Source: Nitrospirota bacterium
GTDB taxonomy: Bacteria; Nitrospirota; UBA9217
Length of the DNA stretch: 64,000 nt
NCBI GenBank assembly: GCA_963737155.1
Contig: CAVTRN010000001.1
Coordinates: forward strand, 1,152,001 to 1,216,000
Reading direction: 5' to 3'
In this document: positions 24,263-41,428 of the stretch, piece after piece
Numbering within the stretch: position 1 is the first letter of the stretch
Layout of the letters: each line of letters begins with the position of its first letter
Program-made: the position numbers and the translations under genes
The notes under the pieces: model-generated
What the model was told of the DNA's origin: nothing
The model's database searches: none
The model's input: only the letters and a program-made list of their open reading frames with translations

Positions 24263-24338
24263 GCGGGCGTAGCTCAGCTGGTAGAGTACAAGCTTCCCAA
24301 GCTTGGGGTCGCGGGTTCGAAACCCGTCGCCCGCTCCA
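24263..24338 (+). tRNA. tRNA-Gly (CCC)
   Basis: 76-nt cloverleaf GCGGGCG...CGCCCGC-TCCA; anticodon arm CAAGC-TTCCCAA-GCTTG; GGTTCGA T-loop. Confidence 0.97.
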
Positions 24339-24369
24339 TTTTATCCCATGTATTCAAAGAGTTATTTGT

Positions 24370-24660
24370 ATAAACCCCAATTTTTTGCACTTCTTGTGCA
24401 CCACCAATAACAGTACGTAACATCTGAAAATTCAGAATTGCGCACTTCTTTGTTATTTCGGTGCTGCTATGGCCAAGGGCTTTTGATATTACATCCAAGT
24501 TAACCCGCCTATTAATCGCCTGTGACGCAATCGAGTGCCCTGTGGCGTTGTACAAGCTAATATAAGGTGTCAGCTTTTTGCATGCCCTATGTGTGCTCTA
24601 TGCATGTTTTCCGCATTCCACCGGCCGTATATGGCTTTCCTATTTCAGCGGGTCTATCTG
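24370..24660 (-). pseudogene. Tyrosine integrase C-terminal remnant
   Basis: SLYNATGHSIASQAINRRVNLDVISKALGHSSTEITKKC; box II R and catalytic Y replaced by G and C; N-terminus lost. Confidence 0.8.
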
Positions 24661-24826
24661 TCAAGAAACAAAGAGACGGTTGTTTTATTTTATTAAATAT
24701 CAAAGAGTTAAGTGCTTTTTGCTGTCACCAACCTGTCATCAGGCGAAGCCACGATGAAAAGCTATGATGACTTCAAACGGGAACTCGCGGAAATTGACGA
24801 AAATCTCGTTCTGAGCTATTCCTTAA

Positions 24827-26808
24827 CCTATCTTCCGCAGTTGTCAAACCAAAGTTTTTATTATTCAAGAAGATAGCTCTCTCAAATGGCCAAATTCTGC
24901 ACTACATTTTGAACTATCTTCGGTCTGTTCGGAAGCGGCAGCTTGAGTCTCTGCAGGAGCGGTTGCAACTCCTTCGGTGCCTTGCTCACCACGCGTAGTC
25001 TAATCGTGGTGTCGCGCGTCGGCAGCAAGACATCAAGTGATTGTACTCTGCACAGTTGTTCGAGCAGTTTTCGGGGTGCAGTGCCGATGCCAGAGCAGGA
25101 CATCCAGTGTGACAGCATCCGCCACATCGCGAGCGCGAGAAAGCATACAAGGATATGCGCCTGTGTACGATCTTTCTTTTGATGGAAGATCGGGCGCATT
25201 CCGAGATCACTCTTGGTGATTCGGAACGCATCCTCCACCTGCGTAAGCTCGATATAGGTCTTCCAAAGCTCTTGAGGATCCTTTTCCGGCCAGTTCGTGC
25301 GCAGGAGGTAGCTGCCACTCGTTGCGAGCGCCCAGTGGTATCGTTCTTCATTTTTTTTGACGTTGATGGCCAGGCGCCCGGCTTTGCCGCTCCCCGTCTC
25401 GGTGACCGTAACCTCGTATAGTGACGCGGCGCGACTATTACGTTCCAGGAGTCTGCCGATTCGAAGCAACGCCTTCTGCTTGTCCCGAAGTTTGCCGGCA
25501 CCGGCTTGCTTCTGCATTTTGGCGAGGCCGTCCTCCAATCGGGTGATAAACCGGTTCAGGATGGCCTGCTCCTTCTCCTTACGTCCCTTTGAACGACAAA
25601 GAAGGAATGTTTCTTCACCGCTGTCTGGATGAGGGCAGAGCTTGATCTCCACATCGGGCCGTACCACATGCCAGTTCTCCTCCAGCAGCTCGCGTTCGAA
25701 CTTTTTAAGCATGGACCTGGGCGTGCCGACCAAGTATCTTGCTCCTCGTGCGCGCATGAATTCAAGATTTTCTTCGCTCACCATGCCCCGGTCCATGACC
25801 CATATCCGTTCGGCTTTGCCGTATTTTTTCTCCATCAGCTCGATCATCTCTTCCACGGTGGTCACATCGGTCCGGTTTCCGTCAAAGACCTCGAAGGCCA
25901 AAGGCAGTCCTTCTTTACTCGCTACAAGCCCGATCGTTACCTGTACGCAATCAGGCCGACCATCTCGGCTGTATCCGCGCTTTGCTTGCGGGTTTCCCTT
26001 CATGGCTCCTTCAAAATATGTTGAGGTGATGTCGTAGAAGAGGAAGTCGAACCGGCTTCCGAAGAGCTCTCCGTACCGCTGCTGCAAATGCCTGCACAAG
26101 GCTTCCTTGTGTGGCAGCAGTTCATCGAGCGCGCGGTATAGTCGGTCATCGTTGACCTTCTCCCGAGGCACCCCCAAAATATCATCGAGCGCCGTTGTAC
26201 CGTACCAGAAGTCGGCGATTTGAAGTTCCGACGATGGCGCGCAAAAACGGGCCAGAACTAGGATGGAGGCCATGATCGACCACGGGATTTCTTCCTTGCC
26301 GGACTTTATATGCTCCGCGCAAAACTCCGAAAGCCGAAGCCGCTTCCACAATGCAAGGCCGAGATACACATCACCGAAACTACGAAGGCGCTCAACCTGT
26401 ACTCCGCTGATATTAACTGTTGCCCATGATGGAACATCGTTGTCTTCTTCAAACAGCGATAATGATGGCGCGGGGGCCGTCCAGTATTCTCCCAATGGCT
26501 TCCCATCTGATCCGTTCTTCACGATCCAGACCGGGGAGCTTGCCGATGGTGGCGACAATTCGTTGTCGCGGGCCTTTGGCAGTGCGTTCGCTTTCTACGA
26601 GCGTCCAGGTCTCGTAGTCAACGCCTCCGCTCTTTTTGCGATGTCGCCGCAGATACATGCTGTCATTATGCCAAGGTGAATTCTGCTGCGCAAGAGGGTT
26701 TTCTGCACTACACACGGTTTTCAAAGATCTGATGCTGAAAAATCAAAGAGATGATTGCACAAAACAACTTAAAATCGCTATAAAAACGACGCATCTGCGG
26801 AAGATGGG
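24827..26808 (-). mobile_element. IS1634-family insertion sequence, copy 1
   Basis: TIRs CCTATCTTCCGCAG / CTGCGGAAGATGGG; TTAA on both flanks. Confidence 0.9.
24882..26658 (-). pseudogene. IS1634-family DDE transposase, frameshifted near 26475
   Basis: N-terminus MYLRRHRKK... in one frame, remainder (YDITSTYFEG, GYSRD, VMDRG, VEDAFR) in another; 2-bp deletion relative to copy 2. Confidence 0.88.
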
Positions 26809-27222
26809 TTAACTTCTGGGATGATGTCACGAGCTAGCTGCCGACGCTAATTGAAGTGTCCTCCGAGCAATTCCGATTTCGGCGGCTATCATGCCATTGG
26901 TTCGCTGTCATTGGTTCGTAAGGGTGCGCTTTCCGCATGCTTCTTATTCCGCCAGGCTTTAGCTCTGAGGTTCATAGCAGACAAAATTTCATTTCACTGA
27001 AGAATCTGTTCACCCTGCTCCAAGATTGATAATTCTGCACGGAGGTACACGTTATGCCATAGTTCACATGGACTGATACAATTGTCGAGAGAGCCTAAGC
27101 ATATTCAGGAGTCAGCAGTAATAAAAATCCTGAAGAAAAAAGCAAATGGAACTTCAAATGAGTCAAATGTTGTTTCCGGTGAGTCTGTCGGGATGTAGAA
27201 GATAAAGCATGGTGGGGAATAT

Positions 27223-27441
27223 TTAATTGATTAGATTCAAATCATCTATGACTTCATCAGAGGTTTTGTGGTGAACAGTAGCTACGATACATTTTGCTTC
27301 GTAGTCACTTAGAAGAGATTCTGTTTGCATAAATTCTTTTATAAAATGCAATGATTCCGAATAAGATTTTAAACAGATTCTTTTAATCAATATGTTGGCA
27401 ATTAATGATTTGTCTTTTTCATTAAAACTTTCCGTATCCAT
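27223..27441 (-). CDS. Hypothetical protein
   Basis: AAGGAGGTG RBS before ATG; 72 aa. Confidence 0.55.
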   Translation of the reverse strand: MDTESFNEKDKSLIANILIKRICLKSYSESLHFIKEFMQTESLLSDYEAKCIVATVHHKTSDEVIDDLNLIN

Positions 27442-27795
27442 TTTAGACACCTCCTTCTATCCGCTGTAGAGGCTCAAAATGGAATTAAGACACATAAATC
27501 TCCTTTTGTCAAATGTGTCATAAATCCCAATTTAGTCAACACTTGCGTCATAATACACATTATATTCATTCCACTTTGTATCTTGGTATGGAAAAAAATG
27601 TTTACAATCATGTGTTTCAGCAAATGTACGCACATCCCGCCATTATGAAAACAAACCAATTGTGATTATGACCTGTTTCGTATCTCTGTCTCCTTATTCT
27701 CAATAATTTAATCCGAGTTTTCTTAATTTAAAAAACCACCTTACGATTACAATAGGTGGTTCTGTTTTTTTTACAATTCAGCAGTTGAAATCCAA

Positions 27796-28047
27796 TCAAT
27801 TCAAATCGAGAAACTTACCACCTCTAATTTTGTCAATAGGTTCATTAAATGCACCAGAGGGATATTCAGATATTGTAAGACCATATGTTATGTCATTGCC
27901 ACATTTACATTTGAATTCGTCTTTTGCGAAATGCATGGTTTCTTTGCCCATACCCCTATCGTGGGATTCAACTTCTACAAAGGTTAGTTTAACGCTGATT
28001 CTATTCCTGCACTTTGCACATTCAATAGTCGCTGATGTTGGTAACAA
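27796..28047 (-). CDS. Small zinc-ribbon-like protein
   Basis: CAKC...RGMGKE...CKCG...EYPSGA; GAGAGG upstream. Confidence 0.65.
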   Translation of the reverse strand: MLPTSATIECAKCRNRISVKLTFVEVESHDRGMGKETMHFAKDEFKCKCGNDITYGLTISEYPSGAFNEPIDKIRGGKFLDLN

Positions 28048-28129
28048 TGATTAAATATCCTCTCACTTTACTTAGAATGATGGAGCTTACAATAGTTCCG
28101 TCACTAATGCAATTTTAATCTTTGGTGAA

Positions 28130-28447
28130 ATTGGGAGCTACCCCCCTTTGTTGTGCCACTTGCAATTAGAGGTTTTTGACAACTCTTGCAGCTTGAATTC
28201 AGCCGGCGTCAGGTCGCCCAGAGAGCTATGCAGCCGAGTCTGATTGTAATCAACGCGCCAGTCCTCGATGATTTTCCTGGTCTGATCGAGGCTCATGAAC
28301 CGGTTCTCGTTCAGACATTCATCCCGGAACCTGCCGTTAAAGCTCTCCATGTAGCAATTATCAACCGGCTTACCCGGGCGTATGAACTGAAGCTTGATCC
28401 CGCGTTCATACGCCCAGACATCTAGCGCGTTGCTGATGAACTCCGGG
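28130..28447 (-). pseudogene. IS3-family transposase OrfB C-terminal remnant
   Basis: PEFISNALDVWAYERGIKLQFIRPGKPVDNCYMESFNGRFRDECLNE...YNQTRLHSSLGDLTP. Confidence 0.9.
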
Positions 28448-29059
28448 CTTTATTTGTTCATCTATCCTAGGGTTATTTTTTATTACGTGCAAGTAGACTG
28501 TAAAAGCTGGGTGAATTTAACCTCCCCACTCTTACGATATACCTGAATCCCTGAATCTTGTATAATCACCACAGCATGAAACCCATCCATCCATACACAG
28601 AGCCATTCGGGATGTGACGAATTTCCTGCAGGGATACGGTATCAGTACCCCGTTATCCGTCGCTCCTTATTTACTAAGATCGAACTTTCCGCCTCCTTTG
28701 TTAGCGACGGTGATTTCGTGGACGATTTTAGCGGTTGTTTCCTCTTGTTGGAATCAGGCTTTCGATGTTTTTGACCTTACTTTAAAAGCTGGTTTTGTCC
28801 TTTTCTTGTGAATTTATGCTATATTTCCATCACATCCATCTTGGAGGTTATATCGAGGAACACGTCTACTTAGCTTCAGATCCGCGGCAGCCTTGGAAAT
28901 CAGCATAATAGAGATCGTGGCCGCAGGGAACGTACTCACAATTCAAGTACGCCTTTTTCTGAATTTCAGCGGCAACATCATCGTCAGAATCGCCCCCGTT
29001 CCGGTCGTCGCCTACGTTTTTCTGGAGTAATGGGGATTTACGTTGAACAGGAGGTTACT

Positions 29060-29365
29060 ATGAAGTGGTATCATTATATTGCCTGTTTTTTCGCAGGTGC
29101 GTTATTAGCCAATACGGTTCCTCATTTTGTGCAGGGCATTTCCGGTAATAGTTTTCCAACCCCTTTTGCTAATCCACCGGGCAAGGGATTGTCATCGCCA
29201 ACAATCAATGTTCTGTGGGCATTATTCAATTTGGTAGCCGGATATGTCTTATTCAGAACGGGCAGGGTTTCTTCAGCAAACAAGTGGAGTCTTCTTGTCT
29301 TTTTTGCAGGCATTGCCTACATGAGCATAACGTTAAGCATCGTATTTGTGGGTAGAGTTCATTAG
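29060..29365 (+). CDS. Hypothetical membrane protein
   Basis: AGGAGG RBS; NTVPHFVQGISG..FPTPFANPPGKGLSSP; three TM segments. Confidence 0.8.
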   Translation: MKWYHYIACFFAGALLANTVPHFVQGISGNSFPTPFANPPGKGLSSPTINVLWALFNLVAGYVLFRTGRVSSANKWSLLVFFAGIAYMSITLSIVFVGRVH

Positions 29366-29391
29366 GGCTTGAAAAACTACTCCTGACCGAT

Positions 29392-29582
29392 TCTCAGGGG
29401 AGTTAGTTCGATGCCGTTGCCATTCAGCATTTCAAGAGATTGTTCAGGAATCTTATCTATACGGGATTAACCAGAGAGCCAAGCAGCTACACTTTTTTGT
29501 CGGCAGCAGGAAGGCGCTGTCAATGGCGGTGAAGCAGATTGATAATCGGAAGAGGCAGACGGCATTGAGTTATTATATTTGA
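29392..29582 (+). pseudogene. RecD2-like SF1 helicase C-terminal remnant 1
   Basis: SQGS*FDAV...LFRNLIYTGLTR/AKQL..FVGSRKALSMAVKQIDNRKRQTAL (motifs V and VI) with stop and frameshifts. Confidence 0.75.
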
Positions 29583-29654
29583 TTATGGATTAAAGGAAGG
29601 GTGTATCCATTAGGGATGCCATTTCAATCCCTTCCTAATAAATGATGAGGGTAT

Positions 29655-30206
29655 ATGCCTGAAAAGAAGAATCGAATTATTGTAGATATTGATAACACCC
29701 TTTGGGATTTTGCATCTGCTCTATGGAAAAAGATTGCTCATTATGGTGTACCACAGCCATCAGAGTGGCAAGGGGATTTTTATAAACGATATTTTTCACT
29801 TGAACAACTCCTGAGCTATGTGGATAAGGTTCATGATGAGCAGGATGAAAGATACCCGCCTTTTCCTGATGCCGTTAATTTTCTATCTTGTCTGAGAAAA
29901 AAAGGTTGCCACATTACGATTGCTAGCCTTCGGAATCCTAATAAGAAGAATGTTACTGAAAAATGGTTGAAGACCCATCGGCTTGTTTATGATGAACTCT
30001 ATCTTGTTCCCGATAAGTCAGTATTATTCGATGACCATCATGCCATTGTAGATGATGACTTACGAACACTGGATAAGGCGGTTAATAAGGGATTGATTGC
30101 CACAGGGCTAAAATTTGCTTGGAATAAGAATTCGAACCACACGTTGTTTTCAGGGTTGACGGATGTTTTTGGGTATCTCAATAAAACTGATTGTTGCAGG
30201 GATTAA
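29655..30206 (+). CDS. HAD-superfamily 5'(3')-deoxyribonucleotidase-like protein
   Basis: IVDIDNTL DxDxT motif; K...IVDD motifs III/IV. Confidence 0.75.
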   Translation: MPEKKNRIIVDIDNTLWDFASALWKKIAHYGVPQPSEWQGDFYKRYFSLEQLLSYVDKVHDEQDERYPPFPDAVNFLSCLRKKGCHITIASLRNPNKKNVTEKWLKTHRLVYDELYLVPDKSVLFDDHHAIVDDDLRTLDKAVNKGLIATGLKFAWNKNSNHTLFSGLTDVFGYLNKTDCCRD

Positions 30207-30225
30207 AGGTAAAGGAGAATTGCCC

Positions 30226-30552
30226 ATGGTCCTATTGATAAAATGGCTGGTATATTCAGGCATCATCTATTTGACATGCTGGTTGTTGCCGGGAATTAAA
30301 GTTACGGATTTTAGGGTTGCGGTTATAGTTGCAGCTGTATTAGGGATAATCAACGTGATTGTTAAACCAATTTTGATATTACTTACGTTACCTATTACGA
30401 TTTTAACTTTAGGGCTTTTTTTGCTCGTCATAAATGCGCTGATGCTAATACTTGTATCCCATTGTGTTAGCGGATTCGTGGTTGTAAGTTTTGGATGGGC
30501 CGTGCTGGGGGCTTTGATTATTTCTATCTTGTACCACTTGATATTTTGGTAA
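30226..30552 (+). CDS. YvlD/DUF360 4-TM holin-like membrane protein
   Basis: LGIINVIVKPILILLTLPITILTLGLFLLVINALML; AAGGAG RBS. Confidence 0.88.
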   Translation: MVLLIKWLVYSGIIYLTCWLLPGIKVTDFRVAVIVAAVLGIINVIVKPILILLTLPITILTLGLFLLVINALMLILVSHCVSGFVVVSFGWAVLGALIISILYHLIFW

Positions 30553-30557
30553 TAAAG

Positions 30558-31016
30558 TTTATTATTCTCCATTGCACCCAAAAACTCATAAAAGAACTCG
30601 GAAGCCCACCCCTTCGGAATACTGGCGTGCAAATCACGGGTCGCGGTAACTGGTACGCCAACCTACTTACGATTAATCGGAGAAAATGCATCCTTTTCAC
30701 CAACGAGAAGACTTTGTAATCCTTCCTTATACCTAAGGTTAAGAAAGAGAACCTAAAGAACATTGTTGATGACTTTCTGTTCAATATGAACTTGAAATTA
30801 CAGGCAGAGGGATTCCCTATTGAGGTACTAAGCAAGGTCATGAAGGAGTACACGGATAGCGGTTTTGCCAAAACCCCTAGCAAGCCTGTTCTGGGTTCTA
30901 TGAATGAATTCACCTTTCGGTATAAATCCCATATGATTGAGCGTTATGGTGGCATTGAGAACATCAAGATTCTTGGAGTCAACAAGGATATTAACAAACC
31001 ATCATGGGGGGAATAA
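30558..31016 (+). pseudogene. DUF6933-like protein with in-frame stop
   Basis: LHCTQKL...WYANL..INRRKCILFTNEKTL*SFLIP...KTPSKPVLGSMNE; TAA at 30717-30719 and frame continues. Confidence 0.7.
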
Positions 31017-31646
31017 ATTATCTACGTCCGATAGAGAGCTTTTACTCAGGGGAGAAATTACCAGAGGACATATCGGGGGTGTAGTCTATGTATTTTTACG
31101 AAACGGCTGACTGATTTAAAAATGTTGATAATTTTCACCTACTTATGAAGTCAGGAATGAATCATTAATATTTTTCTAACTTATTGTTATGATAATATTA
31201 ATATTGCCTAAATAATGTGCAAGTTACGTTCTGGTTAAGAATAAGAGCCAAATACTTATAATTTTGACACTCTTTTGCACAGGTTGTCCACATGGTTTGT
31301 TTGTAGAACATATAAGCCATTATTTTTTCAAAGTCCTAACCCCGTATGAGCAATTTATTTTGAATGGTACTTTTTTATTTACTCAAGTTTTGCGGGTGCA
31401 AATTTGTAAACCGGTGAGGTTTTGAAATGGCATGGCAGTATTATGTGACTGAGCTTAGGAATAAGTAGAGGGAGATGCATCTTGCGAGGAATTTACTTTA
31501 TTCGGGTGCCAAGGATATGGTCAAGAAATTAGGGAAACAGTGAAGTCGATGAAATAGAATCACGATTTCCTCGGCTACTTCCCATGAAGAATACATTATG
31601 CTATACTACGCTGAATTGGTAAATTCCTGCGGGCATCTAATAATAT

Positions 31647-32006
31647 ATGGGGGCTAAGATGATGATTAAGAAAAGTAAAGACATTTCAAAAAAGAAACCT
31701 ATTAAGGCTGGAAAGGTTCAAGGCATGAGCAAGGTTGCTGCAAAAAAGAAAGTAATTAAGACTGAAAAAGTTCAAAATGCTAAAAACATTGTTAATGAGA
31801 TAGAAATGGATTCTGAAGCAAGGATGCTGCAAGATGTCATAGTCATGGCAGAAAATGTGGGGCTTGACGTAGTGAACGTGATTAAAACAGCGCTTATAAG
31901 GGCAATCCAGAGAGCCGAGGGGAGTAATGAATGCTATATGTCTGAGGAAGCACTAAGCTGCGGTCAGGTGAATTGCCTTTGGCGTCAAGACTGTGCTCCA
32001 TTTTGA
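31647..32006 (+). CDS. SAP/Rho-N-like small Cys-motif protein with Lys-rich N-terminus
   Basis: KTALIRAIQRAEG..CY...CGQVNCLWRQDC. Confidence 0.7.
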   Translation: MGAKMMIKKSKDISKKKPIKAGKVQGMSKVAAKKKVIKTEKVQNAKNIVNEIEMDSEARMLQDVIVMAENVGLDVVNVIKTALIRAIQRAEGSNECYMSEEALSCGQVNCLWRQDCAPF

Positions 32007-32139
32007 GTTTGGTTCGAAAGACTCTTCCGATGAACCTTTGAATAGATAAATGACTCATGGTTTGAGTCTTGCCGTAATCTGCCTCTCGCTGCCCTTATGC
32101 AACAGTCTTTTATCGGTAATCTGACCGCGACCAGCGACC

Positions 32140-32250
32140 CCAAAAAGCTGGGGAAAAACACTGGCGGCAGCAGGAAAGCTCTTTAAATGGCAGTCAAGCA
32201 GATAGACAGTCGGAAGCTGCAAACGGCTTTGAGTTATTTGGTCATGAATT
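32140..32250 (+). pseudogene. RecD2-like helicase C-terminal remnant 2
   Basis: GGSRKAL*MAVKQIDSRKLQTALSYL; diverged direct repeat of about 29500-29575. Confidence 0.65.
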
Positions 32251-32310
32251 GAAATTGTATCAGCAGGAATTTAGCAGGACAGCCAGGATGAAGCTGAACT
32301 TTATATTATG

Positions 32311-32508
32311 AAAAGTCATACCTTGGATTTTGAGTGTTCGAGGTTAGTTCCAAACTTTTTGCCTCTGCAGACGCTTTAGGCTACCCTCTTTGTCGCAGGG
32401 CTTGCACACCGCATCTTGCGTTGAGCGAATTAAAACGTGTTACCTCCGCCTCAAAACCCAAGGTATTTTTATGAGTGACCTTTTTTTCTAAAGTATTTAG
32501 TGTTTATG
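32311..32508 (-). ncRNA. Candidate rod-like structured ncRNA of unknown family
   Basis: 17-bp stem 32450-32466 / 32318-32334 plus nested stems; most stem mismatches are G-U only on the minus strand; upstream promoter; no credible ORF. Confidence 0.6.
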
Positions 32509-32514
32509 GCTATT

Positions 32515-32543
32515 AACATAGCCGATGCAATCTTTTACGTCAA
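32515..32543 (-). promoter_or_regulatory. Putative sigma70 promoter driving the candidate ncRNA
   Basis: TTGACG-17bp-TATGTT on minus strand. Confidence 0.65.
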
Positions 32544-32630
32544 GGGAATAAGTAATTTCTCTATAGTCTGCCATTTAGTTTCATGTATTTGAATTCCTTA
32601 TTGCCGTTTTATATTTCTTATATCCCATTG

Positions 32631-32901
32631 TTAGGATTCGCTCTGCATATAGATAGCATAATGCGTTGGGCAGGTGCAAATATGCTCATTACCGTTACCG
32701 ACAGTAAATTTGTAGGAACAGGAAATGTCATCTGTATCCTTCTCAGTCTTTTACATGAAGCATTCTTTCATCGAAACACTTCTCAATTTTACATTGAAGC
32801 AGGTGTTCGCAACCGCCTGTGGAAAGGCAGGAAAAATTATTACAACATCTGGTAGTCATTTTTATTGCTTCATCTAATACACCTGATACGCAAAATTCCA
32901 T
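32631..32901 (-). pseudogene. Small Cys-rich protein with one frameshift
   Basis: MEFC...CCNNFSCLSTGGC...C, shift near 32750, then SCSYKF...ICTCPTHYAIY. Confidence 0.6.
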
Positions 32902-33508
32902 TTAATTCCCTTCGTTCTCAACATTACAGTTAGTTTTAGTGGGGTTCAATGCAGACGACGAAACAGCATCATTTGAAAATATCGGGGATAACTGTTTAAG
33001 CACAGCAGACCATCTGTATGCATTTATTAGATAGCTAATGCCACTTCCCTCAAAGTATGATTTTGTTGTATAATCCTCCATTCACAACCAGCCGATAACC
33101 TCAGGTACTCCAAACCAGCTTTTGGCATTTATTGTTCACCATCTCATCGTGTGCATTGTGCCGCGATTTCAGTTTAACTGTAACGAGAAACATTGCATTA
33201 TTAGTGCTCGTAATTAAAACCAAGATTCCTCCCGATGCAGGGCCGTATATGCTTAAAAGCCTAGCCAAGCTGGCTTTAGAGTCTATGCCATCAATTATTT
33301 CAAGAACATCGTTTTTTGGTTGTGTAATCATACTCAGTGGGAATTTTACCATTTATTACTGAATCCGCATAAACAAGAAGCGCACCCTTCTTTCGGATAA
33401 ATAGCATTCTCTGTACACCACAGAAATATCAGGCATAAATGGGTCAAGTACTGATTAAGCCTAATCTCTTTCTTCTATTGGTGTCATTATGATATATGTC
33501 TGTTTCTT

Positions 33509-33883
33509 CTACTGATAAGTCGGCGGACCCATTGTTGAGATTATGATTTCATTAACCTCTTCTTCGTTCAGGCCGAGTTTTTCATTCATCAAGACAGTTT
33601 CTGCCTTTGCCTTGATAAAGCTGCAATGCCATCCCCAGTCCATCTTATAAAATCCGGGTTCATCCTCAACGGCAACGCATACGATAAAAGCACCTTCTTT
33701 GTTGCGTTCGGAATTAAGAACAAAATATGCTATCCGTCTACCTTTAAAAGCAGCCTCTACAAAATCCGCCACTTGATTGCTCAACTCAACTTTTTCCTTT
33801 GCTATAGATACAGTTCTTTTCTTTATTGTAGAAACAGGCTTTTTCTTTGATGGGCTTATGGGCTTTTTCTTTTTTGCTTTCAT
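33509..33883 (-). CDS. Hypothetical protein with basic N-terminal tail
   Basis: GGAGG RBS; MKAKKKKP... followed by a globular-looking domain (VAVEDEPGFY..DWGW). Confidence 0.7.
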   Translation of the reverse strand: MKAKKKKPISPSKKKPVSTIKKRTVSIAKEKVELSNQVADFVEAAFKGRRIAYFVLNSERNKEGAFIVCVAVEDEPGFYKMDWGWHCSFIKAKAETVLMNEKLGLNEEEVNEIIISTMGPPTYQ

Positions 33884-33903
33884 TAACAACCTCCAATTAT
33901 TCT

Positions 33904-35210
33904 GGTTCCTTCTCAAACTAAGTGGGTAATGGTATAGTAGAGGCCACGAAAAGGAGGGCTTCTATGCAGATACCGGAATCACTTTTTGAGAAGGCGCTTA
34001 AAGTTGAATCACCTTGGAAAATCACCAGGATTGACTTTCAGGAAAATGTGAAGCACCTGTATATTGACCTTGATTTTCCGGAAGGGAGCCTTTTCCCTTG
34101 TCCCCGTTGTGGCAAGTTGGTTACAGCATACGATACGAAGATAAAGACATGGCGGCACCTGAACTTTTTTCAATACGAGTGTTATTTACGGGTACGAATG
34201 CCACGAACGGACTGTCCTCAAGACGGCCCCTTACGTGTAGATGCGCCGTGGGCGCGAGCAGATGCGGATTTCACCCTTCTGTTTGAATCGTTTGCTATGA
34301 CGTTATGTCGGGAGATGCCAGTCAACACCGTGTCACGGATTATTGGGGTTGATGATAACAAACTCTGGCGGATGATGCGGCACTATGTTGAGGCTGCACG
34401 TCAAGAAGAGGATTATTCAGAAGTAACGCGACTCGGGACGGATGAAACGTCCAAGTGCAAAGGGCATGATTATGTCTCCCTCTTTGTCGACCTGGACGAG
34501 AAGAGAACGATCTTTGTGGCCGAAGGCAAAGGATCGGAGACGGTAGTCGCATGTACACAAGATTTGCGCGAACACGGTGGTGAACCGGAGAATATAACGG
34601 ATGTGAGTATAGATATGTCCCCGGCATTCATTAAGGGAGTGGAAGATAATTTTAAGAACGCGCAAATCACGTTTGATAAGTTTCATGTGATGAAGATTAT
34701 CAACAAAGCCGTAGATGAAGTGAGAAAAATAGAGTCGAGAGGACAGGATATTCTCCGCGGCCACAAGTACCTTTTTTTAAAAAACAGGGCGAATTTAACA
34801 GACAATCAAAGCGAATCACTTCGGGCGATAGAATCGCAGCCGCGATTGAACCTGAAGACAGTGCGGGCGCTACATATCCGAGAGAACTTTCAAGATATTT
34901 ATAAAGAGTGTGACAGCGAGACATTCGGGCGAGCACTGAGGAAATGGTATTTTTGGGCGACCCATTGCAGAATACCGCAAATCGTTGAAGCAGCTAAGAC
35001 GATCAAGAACCATTGGTCGGGTGTTGTAAGATGGTTTGAGAGCAAAGTAAACAATGGAATTCTCGAAGGCCTAAATAGTTTGGTTCAGGCAGCAAAGTCG
35101 AAGGCACGAGGATACCGTACTTTCAAGAACTTCTCGACGATTATCTACATGCTTACTGGTAAGCTCGACTACGGCAAGGTCGGACTACCCACTTGAGATG
35201 AGAAAGAACC
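33904..35210 (+). mobile_element. ISL3-family insertion sequence
   Basis: TIRs GGTTCCTTCTCA..AAGTGGGTA / TACCCACTT..TGAGAAAGAACC; 8-bp TSD ATTATTCT at 33896-33903 and 35211-35218. Confidence 0.95.
33964..35196 (+). CDS. ISL3-family transposase (intact)
   Basis: CPRCG zinc finger, WRHL, GTDET, IDMSPAF, FDKFH, NGILEGLN. Confidence 0.95.
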   Translation: MQIPESLFEKALKVESPWKITRIDFQENVKHLYIDLDFPEGSLFPCPRCGKLVTAYDTKIKTWRHLNFFQYECYLRVRMPRTDCPQDGPLRVDAPWARADADFTLLFESFAMTLCREMPVNTVSRIIGVDDNKLWRMMRHYVEAARQEEDYSEVTRLGTDETSKCKGHDYVSLFVDLDEKRTIFVAEGKGSETVVACTQDLREHGGEPENITDVSIDMSPAFIKGVEDNFKNAQITFDKFHVMKIINKAVDEVRKIESRGQDILRGHKYLFLKNRANLTDNQSESLRAIESQPRLNLKTVRALHIRENFQDIYKECDSETFGRALRKWYFWATHCRIPQIVEAAKTIKNHWSGVVRWFESKVNNGILEGLNSLVQAAKSKARGYRTFKNFSTIIYMLTGKLDYGKVGLPT

Positions 35211-35341
35211 ATTATTCTTCTATTTTAGTGTTATTTTGTATGAAGTGCAAGAAGACCGTGAAAGCCTGTGAGTATCTTGACCTTTATCCCTGCCCCGTTT
35301 CTGTTTACCGGATAGTCTAAATCCTGTATAATCTGTCAACC

Positions 35342-35914
35342 ATGAAATCAGCCACCCAATATCGTAAAGCAACCTCTACAGACTTCGCGGGAATTATCCG
35401 CTTGCAGAATGACAATCTCATAACTGCTCTTCAAGGGAAGGATTTATCTCAGGGGTTTCTGACCATACCATTGTCAGTGGAACAACTTCACAGGATAAAC
35501 AGAGAACATGGCATATACGTTGCTTGCCAGGGTAAGGAAATCATCGGATACCTGATGGCACAATCTGTCGAAATAGCTACGGGGTCACCTTTGATAGCCC
35601 GCATGCTTAGCAGACTGAAGAAATTCATATTCGAAGGTGTTGTCTTGTCATCTTGCAAAGTGTTTGTTTATGGACCTGTCTGCATTGACAGGGAACACAG
35701 AGGACAAGAGATATTAGAAGAATTATTTAAGGTTATGCTCCAGACATTGCAAGGTAAATATGATGTAGGTGTTGCTTTTGTTTCAGCACTGAATCCCCGT
35801 TCCTATAATGCTCACAAGAATAAACTTGGGATGCGGATAGCTGATGAATTTGAATTCAATGGACAGAAATATTGGACTCTTGTCTTTGCGGTGAAACAGA
35901 AAGACCAAAAGTGA
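35342..35914 (+). CDS. GNAT-family N-acetyltransferase
   Basis: YGPVCIDREHRGQ acetyl-CoA motif; NPRSYNAH. Confidence 0.85.
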   Translation: MKSATQYRKATSTDFAGIIRLQNDNLITALQGKDLSQGFLTIPLSVEQLHRINREHGIYVACQGKEIIGYLMAQSVEIATGSPLIARMLSRLKKFIFEGVVLSSCKVFVYGPVCIDREHRGQEILEELFKVMLQTLQGKYDVGVAFVSALNPRSYNAHKNKLGMRIADEFEFNGQKYWTLVFAVKQKDQK

Positions 35915-36203
35915 TAGATAACTTTTTTATGTAGTAGCCGGAAACTCGCCATTCATCATCTTTTTCCATCATGGGTACGACTATTTCTATTTCTTCTCTC
36001 TTGTTCCCGAAAGATGAAGACAACACCAGCTACTTCCTTCAATATGGTATACTTATTTTCAGGCATTGTAGGACAGGAAGTAGGAATTTGCAAGACGAGA
36101 ACAGAACTACACGGGTAGCTTGTGCACCAGAATTGTGCAAAAAAAACACAAATTTGACTATGCTAACCTTTTGAATTATCATCAATGTGGTCGAGGGGCT
36201 TAT

Positions 36204-36234
36204 CGGGTTAGAAACCCGTCGCCCGCTCCATTTT
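36204..36234 (+). repeat. att-like direct repeat of tRNA-Gly 3' end (copy 2)
   Basis: CGGGTTAGAAACCCGTCGCCCGCTCCATTTT versus 24312-24342; followed by terminator-like hairpin 36244-36270. Confidence 0.9.
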
Positions 36235-36399
36235 TATATCAATAATCCGGGGGTTATCTCTCGGATTTTTTGTTTTTCGTGAATTCTTCGGGACTGTCCC
36301 CGCCACAATCTTTTGAACAATCAGGCATCACTTGTTCGCGGGTAGCTACGGTTTTCGGCGGCCCAAGAATTTGGTGCAAGATTTCGAGAAATACCGGTT

Positions 36400-36830
36400 T
36401 TAACCGCACGATCTCAACTTTTATTTGCATCTTTTACAAGAAAGTCAGTAATACCTTTGGCCAATATATATTGTGATTAGACCTGATCCTGCTGACTTAT
36501 CTTTTAAAATCATCATTAGTAGCGCACGACCTCATATTCTGATTCGGCTGGGAGGAGTTTATCGTTGTCTTGAAAGCGTCTTCTAATAATGATGCTGAAC
36601 TGAAACAGCGTTAAATAGGTTCCGGAAGTCTGTGCAGAAACACTCTCTTCGGCAAATCGGCGAGATCATTGTCAGTATTGACTGCATCCAAATTTCCAAC
36701 AACGATGTCTCTGTCGCTTGCCTGGAGCAAGCCGATCTAACTCTCTATTATACGAAAGAACTTGGCTGTAAAAGAACATTGCAACTATGAGCAGCAGATT
36801 GACGAGGGGGAAATAGACGTAAGGAATACG
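36400..36830 (+). pseudogene. Diguanylate cyclase (GGDEF) remnant
   Basis: YKKVSNTFG...HDLIF*FGWEEFIVVL...IVSI...ADLTLYYTK across frames; GGEEF decayed to GWEEF. Confidence 0.7.
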
Positions 36831-37056
36831 CGATGCGAATCAGAGCGATTGAACTGTTCAGAACACGCTTCTGAAAAACTCCCGACCTCGGGGATGAGGA
36901 TGCTATCCTGGGGAAAAACCAATGAATGCTTCGAAATATCCTCAACAGAAGAACGAAGCGGCAAAAATTTCCGGAGGCCTGAAATTCAGCCGGTTTGAGC
37001 GCTAAACAAGCTCTTGACAATGACTAAGGACTTGCTTTATCATCGTGCAGGTCGAG

Positions 37057-37177: not shown

Positions 37178-37699
37178 ATGACAAACAAAATCATATTCAT
37201 TACCGGCGGTGCTCGGTCCGGGAAATCATCCTATGCCGAGAAACTGGCAATGAGTCTGGCTGGCAAACGGGCCTATCTTGCCACTGCCCAGGCACTGGAT
37301 GCGGAGATGGCTGCGAGAATCGAGAAGCACCGTCAGTGCCGCGGAAGTGCTTGGAACACCTATGAAGAGCCACTGGCCGTTGCCGCACTCCTGCGCAAAC
37401 TATCGGACCGCTATCAGGTTGTGCTTCTCGACTGCCTTACGCTCTGGCTGAGTAATGTTATGGCTCATACTGATGGTGAGGGCGCGGTTGTTCTTCTCTC
37501 GGAAGAGTTGGTGAAAGCTGTCAAGGATTTCACCGGGACGTGCATCGTGGTTTCGAATGAGGTGGGACTGGGTATCGTTCCTGACAACCCCCTTGCAAGA
37601 AAGTTCCGGGACTATGCAGGTTTGCTGAATCAGATGATCGCCCGGGCTGCAGACGAGGTTTATTTTACGGCTTCGGGAATACCGGTGAGGCTTAAATAA
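37178..37699 (+). CDS. cobU: Adenosylcobinamide kinase/guanylyltransferase
   Basis: ITGGARSGKS, DCLTLWLSN, VSNEVGLG. Confidence 0.96.
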   Translation: MTNKIIFITGGARSGKSSYAEKLAMSLAGKRAYLATAQALDAEMAARIEKHRQCRGSAWNTYEEPLAVAALLRKLSDRYQVVLLDCLTLWLSNVMAHTDGEGAVVLLSEELVKAVKDFTGTCIVVSNEVGLGIVPDNPLARKFRDYAGLLNQMIARAADEVYFTASGIPVRLK

Positions 37700-40110: not shown

Positions 40111-40177
40111 TGGTATTGGTAAATTTCAATAAAAATATTGACATTTAGCTCCCTCATGCCGTATTCTAGACAAACAT

Positions 40178-40264
40178 AACCTGGGGGAGCCGCATGGCTG
40201 AGAGTCCTGATTTCAAGGGATGACCCTTAGAACCTGATCCGGGTAGTTCCGGCGTAGGGAAGGC
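40178..40264 (+). promoter_or_regulatory. TPP riboswitch
   Basis: GGGGAG...GGCTGAGAG...GACCCTTAGAACCTGATCCGGGTAGTTCCGGCGTAGGGAAG upstream of thiS. Confidence 0.95.
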
Positions 40265-40294
40265 AAGTCAATGGCTATCGTCAAAACCTTTTCC

Positions 40295-40648: not shown

Positions 40649-41428
40649 ATGACGAACGATAAACTTATCATAGCAGGAATAAAATTCCAATCCCGGCTCT
40701 GGGTGGGCACGGGAAAATACAAGGATTTTGCAGAAACGAAGAAAGCCATCGAGGTTTCCGGGACTGATGTAGTAACCGTGTCCGTGCGGCGCGTGAATAT
40801 CATCGACAAAAGCAAGGAAAACCTGCTCGATTATATCGATCCGAAAAAATACAAGATTCTGCCGAATACTGCGGGCTGCTACACGGCCAAGGACGCAATC
40901 CGCACGGCGATGCTGGCTGCGGAGGCTGGAATCACGAATCTCGTGAAGCTTGAAGTGATCGGCGACGAAAAGACGCTGTTCCCGGATAACGAAGCCACGC
41001 TTGAAGCAGCGAAGGTCCTTGTGAAGGAAGGCTTGATCGTGCTGCCCTACACCAGCGACGACCCGATCATGGCGAAGAAACTTGTGGACATAGGCTGCCC
41101 GGCTGTCATGCCGCTTGCTGCCCCTATCGGCTCCGGTCTCGGCATCAGGAATCCTTATAATATACTGATCATTATGGAAACAGTAAAGGTTCCGATCATT
41201 GTGGACGCGGGGGTGGGTACGGCGTCCGATGTGGCGCTTGCCATGGAGCTGGGCTGTGACGCGGTCCTCCTGAACACGGCGATTGCTGGTGCAAAGGACC
41301 CGATTGCAATGGCAGAGGCAATGAAGTACGGCGTGCTCGGCGGTAGGCTTGCCTTCAAGGCGGGCCGGATAGCGAAGAAACTTTATGCAACAGCCAGCAG
41401 CCCACTGGACGGGATGATAGGAAGCTGA
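40649..41428 (+). CDS. thiG: Thiazole synthase
   Basis: [26 protein letters not shown]. Confidence 0.97.

What the first reader, a model, noticed from the sequence alone, without database searches (positions are those of the whole stretch)
32311..32543. Candidate rod-like ncRNA (~200 nt) with its own promoter inside the tRNA-Gly island
Seen: on the minus strand a TTGACG-17-TATGTT promoter (32543-32515) points into a stretch with no credible ORF that folds by eye into one long irregular hairpin. The stems are AAAGGUCA/UGACUUUU, a 17-bp AUACCUUGGGUUUUGAG/CUCAAAAUCCAAGGUAU, GAGGU/ACCUC, GUUUUAA/UUGGAAC, GC(A)AGAUGC/GCGUCUGC and GCCCU/AGGGU, ending in a U-run. Five or more non-Watson-Crick positions are G-U on the minus strand but A-C on the plus strand, which agrees with the promoter direction and suggests selection on RNA structure. 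It looks intact while its neighbours are pseudogenes. Inference: size and shape resemble a 6S-like RNA polymerase decoy, an orphan retron msr-msd (17-bp a1/a2-like repeats, but no RT gene here) or a defence/antitoxin RNA. I do not recognise the family.
Basis: partly seen in the sequence, partly recalled or inferred. Interest (0 to 1): 0.75.

Follow-up and report, generated by a model that had tools for sequence, protein, structure and literature searches.

The report
Extra, divergent 6S-like RNA gene
This is a real small-RNA gene with its own promoter, a divergent extra copy of the well-known 6S RNA that regulates RNA polymerase, and it belongs to a multi-copy family found in only one bacterial family of the phylum Nitrospirota.

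Summary
The hairpin and promoter are real. The minus strand at 32310-32468 folds much better than shuffles (z -5.2; plus strand -2.9). It belongs to a conserved family: 3 copies in this genome and 0-4 copies in 38 of 64 genomes of the same taxonomic family. The family has compensatory base changes and a conserved sigma70-type promoter about 40 nt upstream.

It matches no Rfam family. Its apical half, however, carries the sequence and structure signature of 6S RNA (GGUGUGCAAGCCCU...AGGG.AGCCUAAA). An exact-pattern scan for that signature outside the family lands inside Rfam-verified 6S RNAs in 18 of 23 loci. A model built from the family also hits true 6S RNAs.

This genome also has one canonical 6S gene elsewhere, as do 60 of 64 relatives. 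The window element is therefore an additional, lineage-restricted 6S paralogue: closing stem, poorly paired central region, 6S-type apical arm, U-run.

Retron, MITE and antitoxin readings are not.

RNA polymerase binding is inferred, not shown.

The parts
32515..32543 (-). sigma70-type promoter: -35 TTGACG (32543-32538), 17-nt spacer, -10 TATGTT (32520-32515)
   Evidence: scanner; equivalent site upstream of 28 of 44 distinct family copies (seen by eye)
32467..32508 (-). inferred 5' leader of about 40 nt between the predicted start (about 32507-32508) and the rod. The start is inferred from the -10 position and was not measured.
   Evidence: inference
32310..32468 (-). body of the 6S-like RNA (full-length match to family model R1, 165.5 bits)
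   Evidence: fold; alignments
32450..32466 (-). closing stem, 5' strand (AUACCUUGGGUUUUGAG); pairs with 32318-32334
   Evidence: 92.7% of cells paired on the MAFFT alignment and 92.6% on the model-fitted one, where 12 of 17 pairs show compensatory changes
32318..32334 (-). closing stem, 3' strand (CUCAAAAUCCAAGGUAU)
32442..32446 (-). second closing helix GAGGU; pairs with ACCUC at 32340-32344
   Evidence: 93.6% paired
32345..32360 (-). putative central-bubble 3' strand (AAAAAGUUUGGAACUA)
32361..32426 (-). apical arm homologous to 6S RNA. It comprises GCU/GGC, GC(A)AGAUGC/GCGUCUGC, the internal loop GGUGU/CUAAA, GC/GC, CCCU/AGGG and the terminal loop. The hallmark motif lies at 32375-32410.
   Evidence: Rfam 6S consensus printed; pattern scan with Rfam checks; R1 alignments to true 6S RNAs
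32311..32314 (-). U-run directly after the closing stem, the likely 3' end or terminator tail. The genome's canonical 6S has the same layout.

Best explanation
The element is a gene for a divergent paralogue of 6S RNA.

How it is made (inferred). It is transcribed from its own sigma70-type promoter at 32543-32515 on the minus strand. The primary transcript would be about 195-200 nt: a 5' leader of about 40 nt, a rod of about 150 nt, and a U-run.

The rod has the 6S layout:
- a long closing stem of 17 bp plus 5 bp;
- a central region whose two strands are not consistently complementary across the family, which I read as the central bubble that mimics an open promoter;
- an apical arm that is sequence-homologous to the apical arm of canonical 6S RNAs.

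How it most likely works. Like 6S RNA, it would bind RNA polymerase holoenzyme as a promoter decoy, probably with release by synthesis of short product RNAs templated on the 5' bubble strand. It acts alongside the genome's single canonical 6S RNA.

Shown here: the gene is real, conserved, structured and strand-specific, it has a conserved promoter, and it shares its apical arm with 6S.

Inferred: the transcript ends, RNA polymerase binding, product-RNA synthesis, and any division of labour with the canonical 6S.
For: (1) Fold. z is -5.17 on the minus strand and -2.90 on the plus strand.

(2) Family. There are 3 copies in this genome. Copies occur in 38 of 64 genomes of the same family, 0-4 per genome. 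None was found in 123 genomes of 21 other families of the phylum.

(3) Covariation. On the MAFFT alignment of 22 copies, 87.4% of cells are paired and 18 pairs have changes on both sides, against 8.7 +/- 1.9 in shuffles (0 of 500 reach it) and 7-15 when the partners are slid. On the 45 distinct model-aligned copies the figures are 27 pairs against 14.9 +/- 2.3.

(4) Promoter. It is conserved upstream of 28 of 44 distinct copies.

(5) Homology to 6S.
- The exact pattern GTGTGCAANCCCT-N5-18-AGAGGGNAGCCT hits 53 loci among 185,579 species genomes.
- 30 of these are family members. Of the other 23, 18 carry the motif inside an Rfam RF00013 hit at gathering score.
- The Rfam 6S consensus reads gGuGuGcAaGCCcgg...ccgGGAAgCcuaAA.
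- Model R1, built only from the family, hits Rfam-verified 6S RNAs full length (L062 42.9 bits, L045 31.9, L041 28.8). It hits the genome's own canonical 6S over the apical arm (22.5 bits).

(6) Per-clade consensus folds leave about 14 nt (clade A) or about 17-23 nt (clade B) unpaired on each side between the closing and apical stems.

(7) The genome's canonical 6S likewise ends in closing stem plus U-run.

(8) Weak expression hint. Four short contigs from relatives in one soil metatranscriptome cover only 32264-32465 and nothing in the flanks.
Against: - Rfam's 6S model does not recognise the element at all. There was no hit at E <= 10 in 32100-32600, and only the canonical gene was found in the whole genome at E <= 10.
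- The closing arm is not detectably similar to canonical 6S, and the rod is about 30 nt shorter.
- In this particular copy the two 'bubble' strands can pair (7 bp with three G-U). Single-sequence folds of family members give intermediate pairing probabilities there. An open bubble is therefore not demonstrated.
- No binding, product-RNA or strain-specific expression data exist. The metatranscriptome contigs are under 90% identical, come from an RNA library that may contain DNA, and cannot show ends or strand.
- Copy number (up to 4 plus the canonical gene) and patchy distribution are unusual for a housekeeping regulator.
Confidence: 0.7

Rival explanations
1. It is a 6S-derived small RNA that kept the 6S apical arm but changed job. 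For example, it might bind a different partner (core polymerase, an alternative sigma holoenzyme or another protein), or act by base-pairing through its variable central strands.
For: The closing arm and central region differ from canonical 6S, and Rfam's model fails. The central strands are the most variable part. There are two deep clades and several paralogues per genome. All relatives with a 6S match already hold one canonical 6S.
Against: The overall rod, length, promoter and U-run layout remain 6S-like. No candidate alternative partner gene travels with it. No target complementarity was examined.
Confidence: 0.2
2. It is a non-autonomous mobile element (MITE) whose 17-bp arms are terminal inverted repeats, or a DNA hairpin recombination site.
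For: It has a long inverted repeat, several copies at different loci, and transposase genes in the same island.
Against: There are only 3 copies in this genome and 0-4 in relatives. The model scores 165.5 bits on the sense strand against 29.8 on the antisense strand. The arms show compensatory and G-U changes rather than a fixed transposase-binding sequence. Conservation extends to a promoter about 45-90 nt outside the repeat. The interior is homologous to 6S RNA. None was found in viral contigs.
Confidence: 0.03
3. It is an orphan retron msr-msd RNA or another RNA that depends on a reverse transcriptase.
For: Long terminal inverted repeats and a size of about 150-200 nt resemble retron non-coding RNAs.
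Against: The only RVT_1 match in the genome is at C1:831546-832601. That is more than 350 kb from this copy and on a different contig from the other two. No recurrent neighbouring protein was found in the 26 loci examined.
Confidence: 0.02

Closest known systems
6S RNA (SsrS; Rfam RF00013)
   Same: It is a rod-shaped RNA of about 150-190 nt with a closing stem, a poorly paired centre and an apical arm. The apical arm shares the motif order GCC...GC-GGUGUGCAAGCCC-loop-GGG.AGCCUAAA-GC...GGC with canonical 6S RNAs. It has its own sigma70-type promoter. The closing stem is followed by a U-run, as in this genome's canonical 6S.
   Different: It is not detected by RF00013. The closing arm is unrelated in sequence and shorter. 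It is an extra gene: the canonical 6S is at G000:C2:1131951-1132132. It is present in 0-4 copies and only in one family of Nitrospirota.
Second 6S paralogues, such as Bacillus subtilis 6S-2 (bsrB) and Legionella 6S2
   Same: It is an additional 6S-type gene beside the main one. The introduction and conclusions of PMC4793215 (passages read) say that most bacteria have one 6S RNA, a minority have two or more, and both B. subtilis paralogues bind polymerase and template product RNAs.
   Different: Here there are up to four extra copies per genome in two deep clades. They sit at variable loci, partly spread by segmental duplication together with a helicase-gene fragment. They are too divergent for the Rfam model.
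Ms1 RNA of mycobacteria
   Same: It is a structured, 6S-resembling RNA that associates with RNA polymerase (abstracts of PMC4191392 and PMC11077062, seen in the listings).
   Different: Ms1 binds core polymerase and is not a sequence homologue of 6S. The present family shares a clearly homologous arm with 6S.

Membership tests
6S RNA (RF00013) | Scores at or above the Rfam gathering threshold (46.4 bits) | tested here: not met
   No RF00013 hit at E <= 10 in 32100-32600. A whole-genome search at E <= 10 finds only the canonical gene on C2, at 97.6 bits.
6S RNA (RF00013) | Length of about 150-200 nt, transcribed as an independent gene | tested here: met
   The R1 match is 159 nt (32310-32468). 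The promoter is conserved. The transcript ends were not measured.
6S RNA (RF00013) | Long closing stem and apical stem forming a rod, supported by covariation | tested here: met
   Closing stem: 92.7% of cells paired; on the model-fitted alignment 92.6% paired, with 12 of 17 pairs showing double changes. Whole structure: 0 of 500 shuffles reach the observed covariation.
6S RNA (RF00013) | Large central bubble that mimics an open promoter | tested here: inconclusive
In this copy, however, the strands can pair, and single-sequence pairing probabilities are intermediate.
6S RNA (RF00013) | Conserved apical-arm sequence and internal loop (GGUGUGCA.GCCC...GGG.AGCCU.AA) | tested here: met
   Consensus printed. 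Of the 23 non-family loci hit by the exact pattern, 18 are RF00013 hits containing it. R1 aligns this arm to true 6S RNAs.
6S RNA (RF00013) | Binds the housekeeping RNA polymerase holoenzyme and templates product RNAs | not testable with these tools
   Needs RIP-seq, gel shift and in vitro transcription.
Retron msr-msd | Reverse transcriptase gene adjacent to the non-coding RNA | tested here: not met
   The only RVT_1 match in the genome is at C1:831546-832601.
MITE | Many copies, no strand preference, conservation limited to the element between its inverted repeats | tested here: not met
   3 copies. Sense 165.5 bits against antisense 29.8 bits. A conserved promoter lies outside the repeat.

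The most novel reading that the evidence does not exclude
One family of Nitrospirota keeps its canonical 6S RNA and has also evolved a separate, expandable set of 6S-derived RNAs. There are up to four per genome, in two ancient clades, each with its own promoter, and some lie in transposase-rich islands or were spread by segmental duplication. In this reading the extra RNAs have specialised. For example, they could act as decoys for different sigma holoenzymes or growth states, or as island-borne modulators of host transcription, rather than being redundant copies.
Probability: 0.2. Interest if true: 0.65.

Novelty: new variant of a known kind. Interest (0 to 1): 0.45.

Why it matters
6S RNA is a near-universal regulator of bacterial RNA polymerase. 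Why some bacteria keep more than one copy is still an open question (PMC4793215, passages read).

This lineage offers an extreme natural case. It has one canonical 6S plus up to four divergent paralogues that standard annotation (Rfam 15) misses entirely. The family model built here could be used to annotate them.

The conserved 6S apical arm, joined to a remodelled closing arm and centre, points to the part of 6S under the strongest constraint. If the paralogues bind different holoenzymes, they would be a handle on sigma-factor competition in an uncultured, environmentally common group.

Tried and rejected
- E. coli genomes: no match for the element.
- Rfam at gathering score on the whole window gave only a TPP riboswitch and the tRNA. 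Rfam at E <= 10 on 32100-32600 gave only chance-level Histone3 and mir-8315 hits.
- Recurrent neighbouring protein families: I clustered ORFs of 70 aa or more in up to about 1.5 kb of flank on each side of 26 copies. No family accompanies the element. The neighbours are diverse: GGDEF response regulator, universal stress proteins, an epimerase, DUF6933.
- Coding reading of ORFs that overlap the element (for example + 32334-32474, and a cluster of 7 frames): rejected. The family alignment has 1-, 4- and 9-nt indels and stem covariation.
- Retron: rejected.
- MITE: rejected.
- Phage-borne copies: 0 exact motif matches in viral contigs.
- Expression: the single run offered (X1, a soil metatranscriptome, word share 0.04) holds only four short contigs from relatives. 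They lie over the RNA body and cannot show ends, strand or level. No run of the organism itself was found.
- Earlier findings of this scan: nothing at this place or with this sequence. A word search returned only unrelated genomes.
- Papers: Wehner et al. 2014 and Barrick et al. 2005 are not held. What they report for Nitrospirae, including in supplements, could not be checked.
- Paper searches for '6S RNA' with 'Nitrospirae' or 'Nitrospirota' returned 3 papers and 1 paper. Judged from titles and abstracts only, none is about such a family.

Full report
**Observation**

Read on the minus strand, the region holds TTGACG-17-TATGTT at 32543-32515. About 45 nt further on, a long imperfect hairpin runs from 32466 to 32318 and is followed by CUUUUC. 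The scanner finds this promoter as the only sigma70-like site in 31900-32900. On its own that is not above chance, since shuffles give 2.2 +/- 1.6.

RNAfold of 32300-32515 gives -63.2 kcal/mol for the minus strand (z -5.17; 0 of 200 shuffles as good). The plus strand gives -57.3 (z -2.90; 2 of 200).

**It is a conserved, multi-copy, strand-specific RNA family**

- The window is G000:C1:1152001-1216000. BLAST finds two further copies in the same genome at 71-73% identity.
- BLAST also finds copies in 13 of 14 genomes of the same genus and in 3 other genera of the family. It finds none in 16 genomes of other families (17 of 41 genomes in all, counting G000).
18 pairs change on both sides, against 8.7 +/- 1.9 in shuffles (0 of 500) and 7-15 when the partners are slid.
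- I built a covariance model (R1) from a trimmed alignment (A2). It finds exactly three sense-strand copies in the genome at 165.5, 144 and 130 bits. The antisense strands score only 27-30 bits.
- Aligning 54 matches to the model (45 distinct; A3) gives 87.0% of cells paired and 27 double-change pairs, against 14.9 +/- 2.3. That alignment is fitted to the model and so leans towards it.
- The alignment has 1-, 4- and 9-nt indels, so the overlapping ORFs are not coding.

**The promoter is conserved**

Upstream of nearly all copies lies TTGACG or TTGCGG, then 16-18 nt, then TATAGT, TATACT or TATGTT. A strict regular expression finds it in 28 of 44 distinct copies with enough upstream sequence. 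The conserved unit therefore reaches beyond the inverted repeat and is a transcription unit.

**No fixed neighbour**

I clustered ORFs of 70 aa or more in up to about 1.5 kb of flank on each side of 26 copies. No family accompanies the element.

**Identity**

Rfam finds nothing here, either at gathering score or at E <= 10. I then scanned 185,579 species genomes for the most conserved stretch as an exact pattern with 23 specified bases. By my own estimate that gives about 0.2 chance hits. It matched 53 loci.

- R1 classes 30 of them as full family members at 88.9 bits or more. 28 are labelled Nitrospirota, Nitrospirae or Nitrospiraceae; one is labelled Syntrophales and one Acidobacteriota.
- The other 23 come from Geomonas/Geobacter, Silvanigrellaceae/Oligoflexales, Myxococcaceae, Nitrospinae, Betaproteobacteria and others. 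In 18 of these 23 the motif lies inside an RF00013 (6S RNA) hit at gathering score (7, 11). The remaining five are L044, L051, L056, L079 and L082.
- The Rfam 6S consensus printed reads gGuGuGcAaGCCcgg..ccgGGAAgCcuaAA, with the same helices that I had assigned here: stem, GGUGU/CUAAA internal loop, 2-bp GC/GC, then CCC./.GGG.
- R1 aligns Rfam-verified 6S RNAs full length (L062 42.9 bits, L045 31.9, L041 28.8). It aligns this genome's own canonical 6S over model positions 50-113 (22.5 bits).
- In those alignments the homology runs from GCCUAAU on the 5' side to GGC on the 3' side, that is, the whole apical arm.

**It is an extra 6S**

RF00013 finds one canonical 6S in this genome at C2:1131951-1132132 (97.6 bits). 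It finds exactly one in 60 of the 64 genomes of the class, which is a single family.

The new family is present in 38 of those 64 genomes, with 0-4 copies each. In an even sample of the phylum it occurs only in that family: 15 of 27 genomes plus G000, and 0 of 123 genomes in 21 other families. Absences in incomplete genomes are not proof.

I built a tree of 44 distinct copies, after dropping duplicates and one truncated row. It shows two well-supported clades (99/98). Copies from one genome fall in different clades or subclades. The window copy is separate from the other two in this genome, which group with the four copies of G011.

**Architecture**

Consensus folds were made per clade. I left out three long-branch rows and the truncated row. 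The folds keep these parts:
- the closing stem (17 bp, plus GAGG/CCUC);
- the apical arm (GCC/GGC, the GC..AGAUGC/GCGUCUGC helix, the conserved loop, CCCU/AGGG).

Between them they leave about 14 nt unpaired on each side in clade A and about 17-23 nt in clade B. That is the 6S layout.

I read it as the two bubble strands. In this copy they can pair, and single-sequence pairing probabilities are intermediate, so the bubble is not proven.

The canonical 6S of this genome also ends with closing stem plus U-run.

**Rivals**

- Retron: the only RVT_1 match in the genome is more than 350 kb away.
- MITE: contradicted by low copy number, strand asymmetry, compensatory changes and the external promoter.
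- Viral contigs: no motif match.

**Expression**

Only one run was offered, a soil metatranscriptome. Four short contigs from relatives, all under 90% identical, lie only over 32264-32465. This is weak and shows neither ends nor strand.

**Literature**

Passages of PMC4793215 state that most bacteria have one 6S RNA, and that a minority, mainly Firmicutes and Legionella, have two or more. A passage of PMC8414754 lists Firmicutes with two copies. Searches pairing '6S RNA' with Nitrospirae or Nitrospirota found nothing on such a family, judged from titles and abstracts only. Wehner 2014 and Barrick 2005 are not held.

**Verdict**

This is a real gene for a divergent, lineage-restricted, multi-copy 6S RNA paralogue. 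Function as a polymerase decoy is inferred from homology and architecture.

Noticed in passing
window 32162-32252 (+), directly downstream of and convergent with the RNA: A roughly 90-nt repeat with 8 copies in the genome. It is the 3' end of a recD-like SF1 helicase gene. A long open frame of at least 528 aa (stop to stop) ends at about C1:242506 with ...LIYTGLTRAKQLCVFVGSRKALSMAVKQIDNRNRQTALSYLVMN*. Differences between copies fall mostly at third codon positions. In the window only a 21-codon remnant is left, preceded by an in-frame stop. Copies of the 6S-like gene in this genome and in G011 carry this fragment, which suggests they spread by segmental duplication.
   Followed up: partly
G000:C2:1131951-1132132 (+) (L087 1501-1682): The genome's canonical 6S RNA gene (RF00013, 97.6 bits). 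It has its own promoter-like TTGCCA...TATATA upstream and a U-run after the closing stem.
   Followed up: partly
window 40173-40277 (+): A TPP riboswitch (RF00059, 71.6 bits) upstream of thiamine genes. ORFs with ThiG- and ThiE-like translations start at 40649 and 41507; those two names are my reading of the translations and were not searched.
   Followed up: no
window 24263-37000: Between tRNA-Gly(CCC) (24263-24338) and cobU (37178-37699) lies a patchwork. It holds an IS4-type DDE transposase (24882-26558, minus), a holin-like protein (30163-30552), an ISL3 transposase (33922-35196) and remnants of a DUF6933 gene (about 30500-31000). Several small-gene segments recur, in a different order, around the other two 6S-like copies.
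   Followed up: partly
window 31647-32006 (+) and L009 (G009:C20): A lysine-rich protein of about 120-160 aa with a cysteine-containing C-terminal motif (...CGQ.NCLW.Q.C...) lies next to the 6S-like gene in two different genomes. It has no Pfam match.
   Followed up: no
5' leaders of family copies: Many copies share an ATTGAGAAC-like motif and a GCYGCTGATTCA-like motif in the roughly 40-nt leader between the promoter and the rod. The window copy has diverged there. This may be a processing signal.
   Followed up: no
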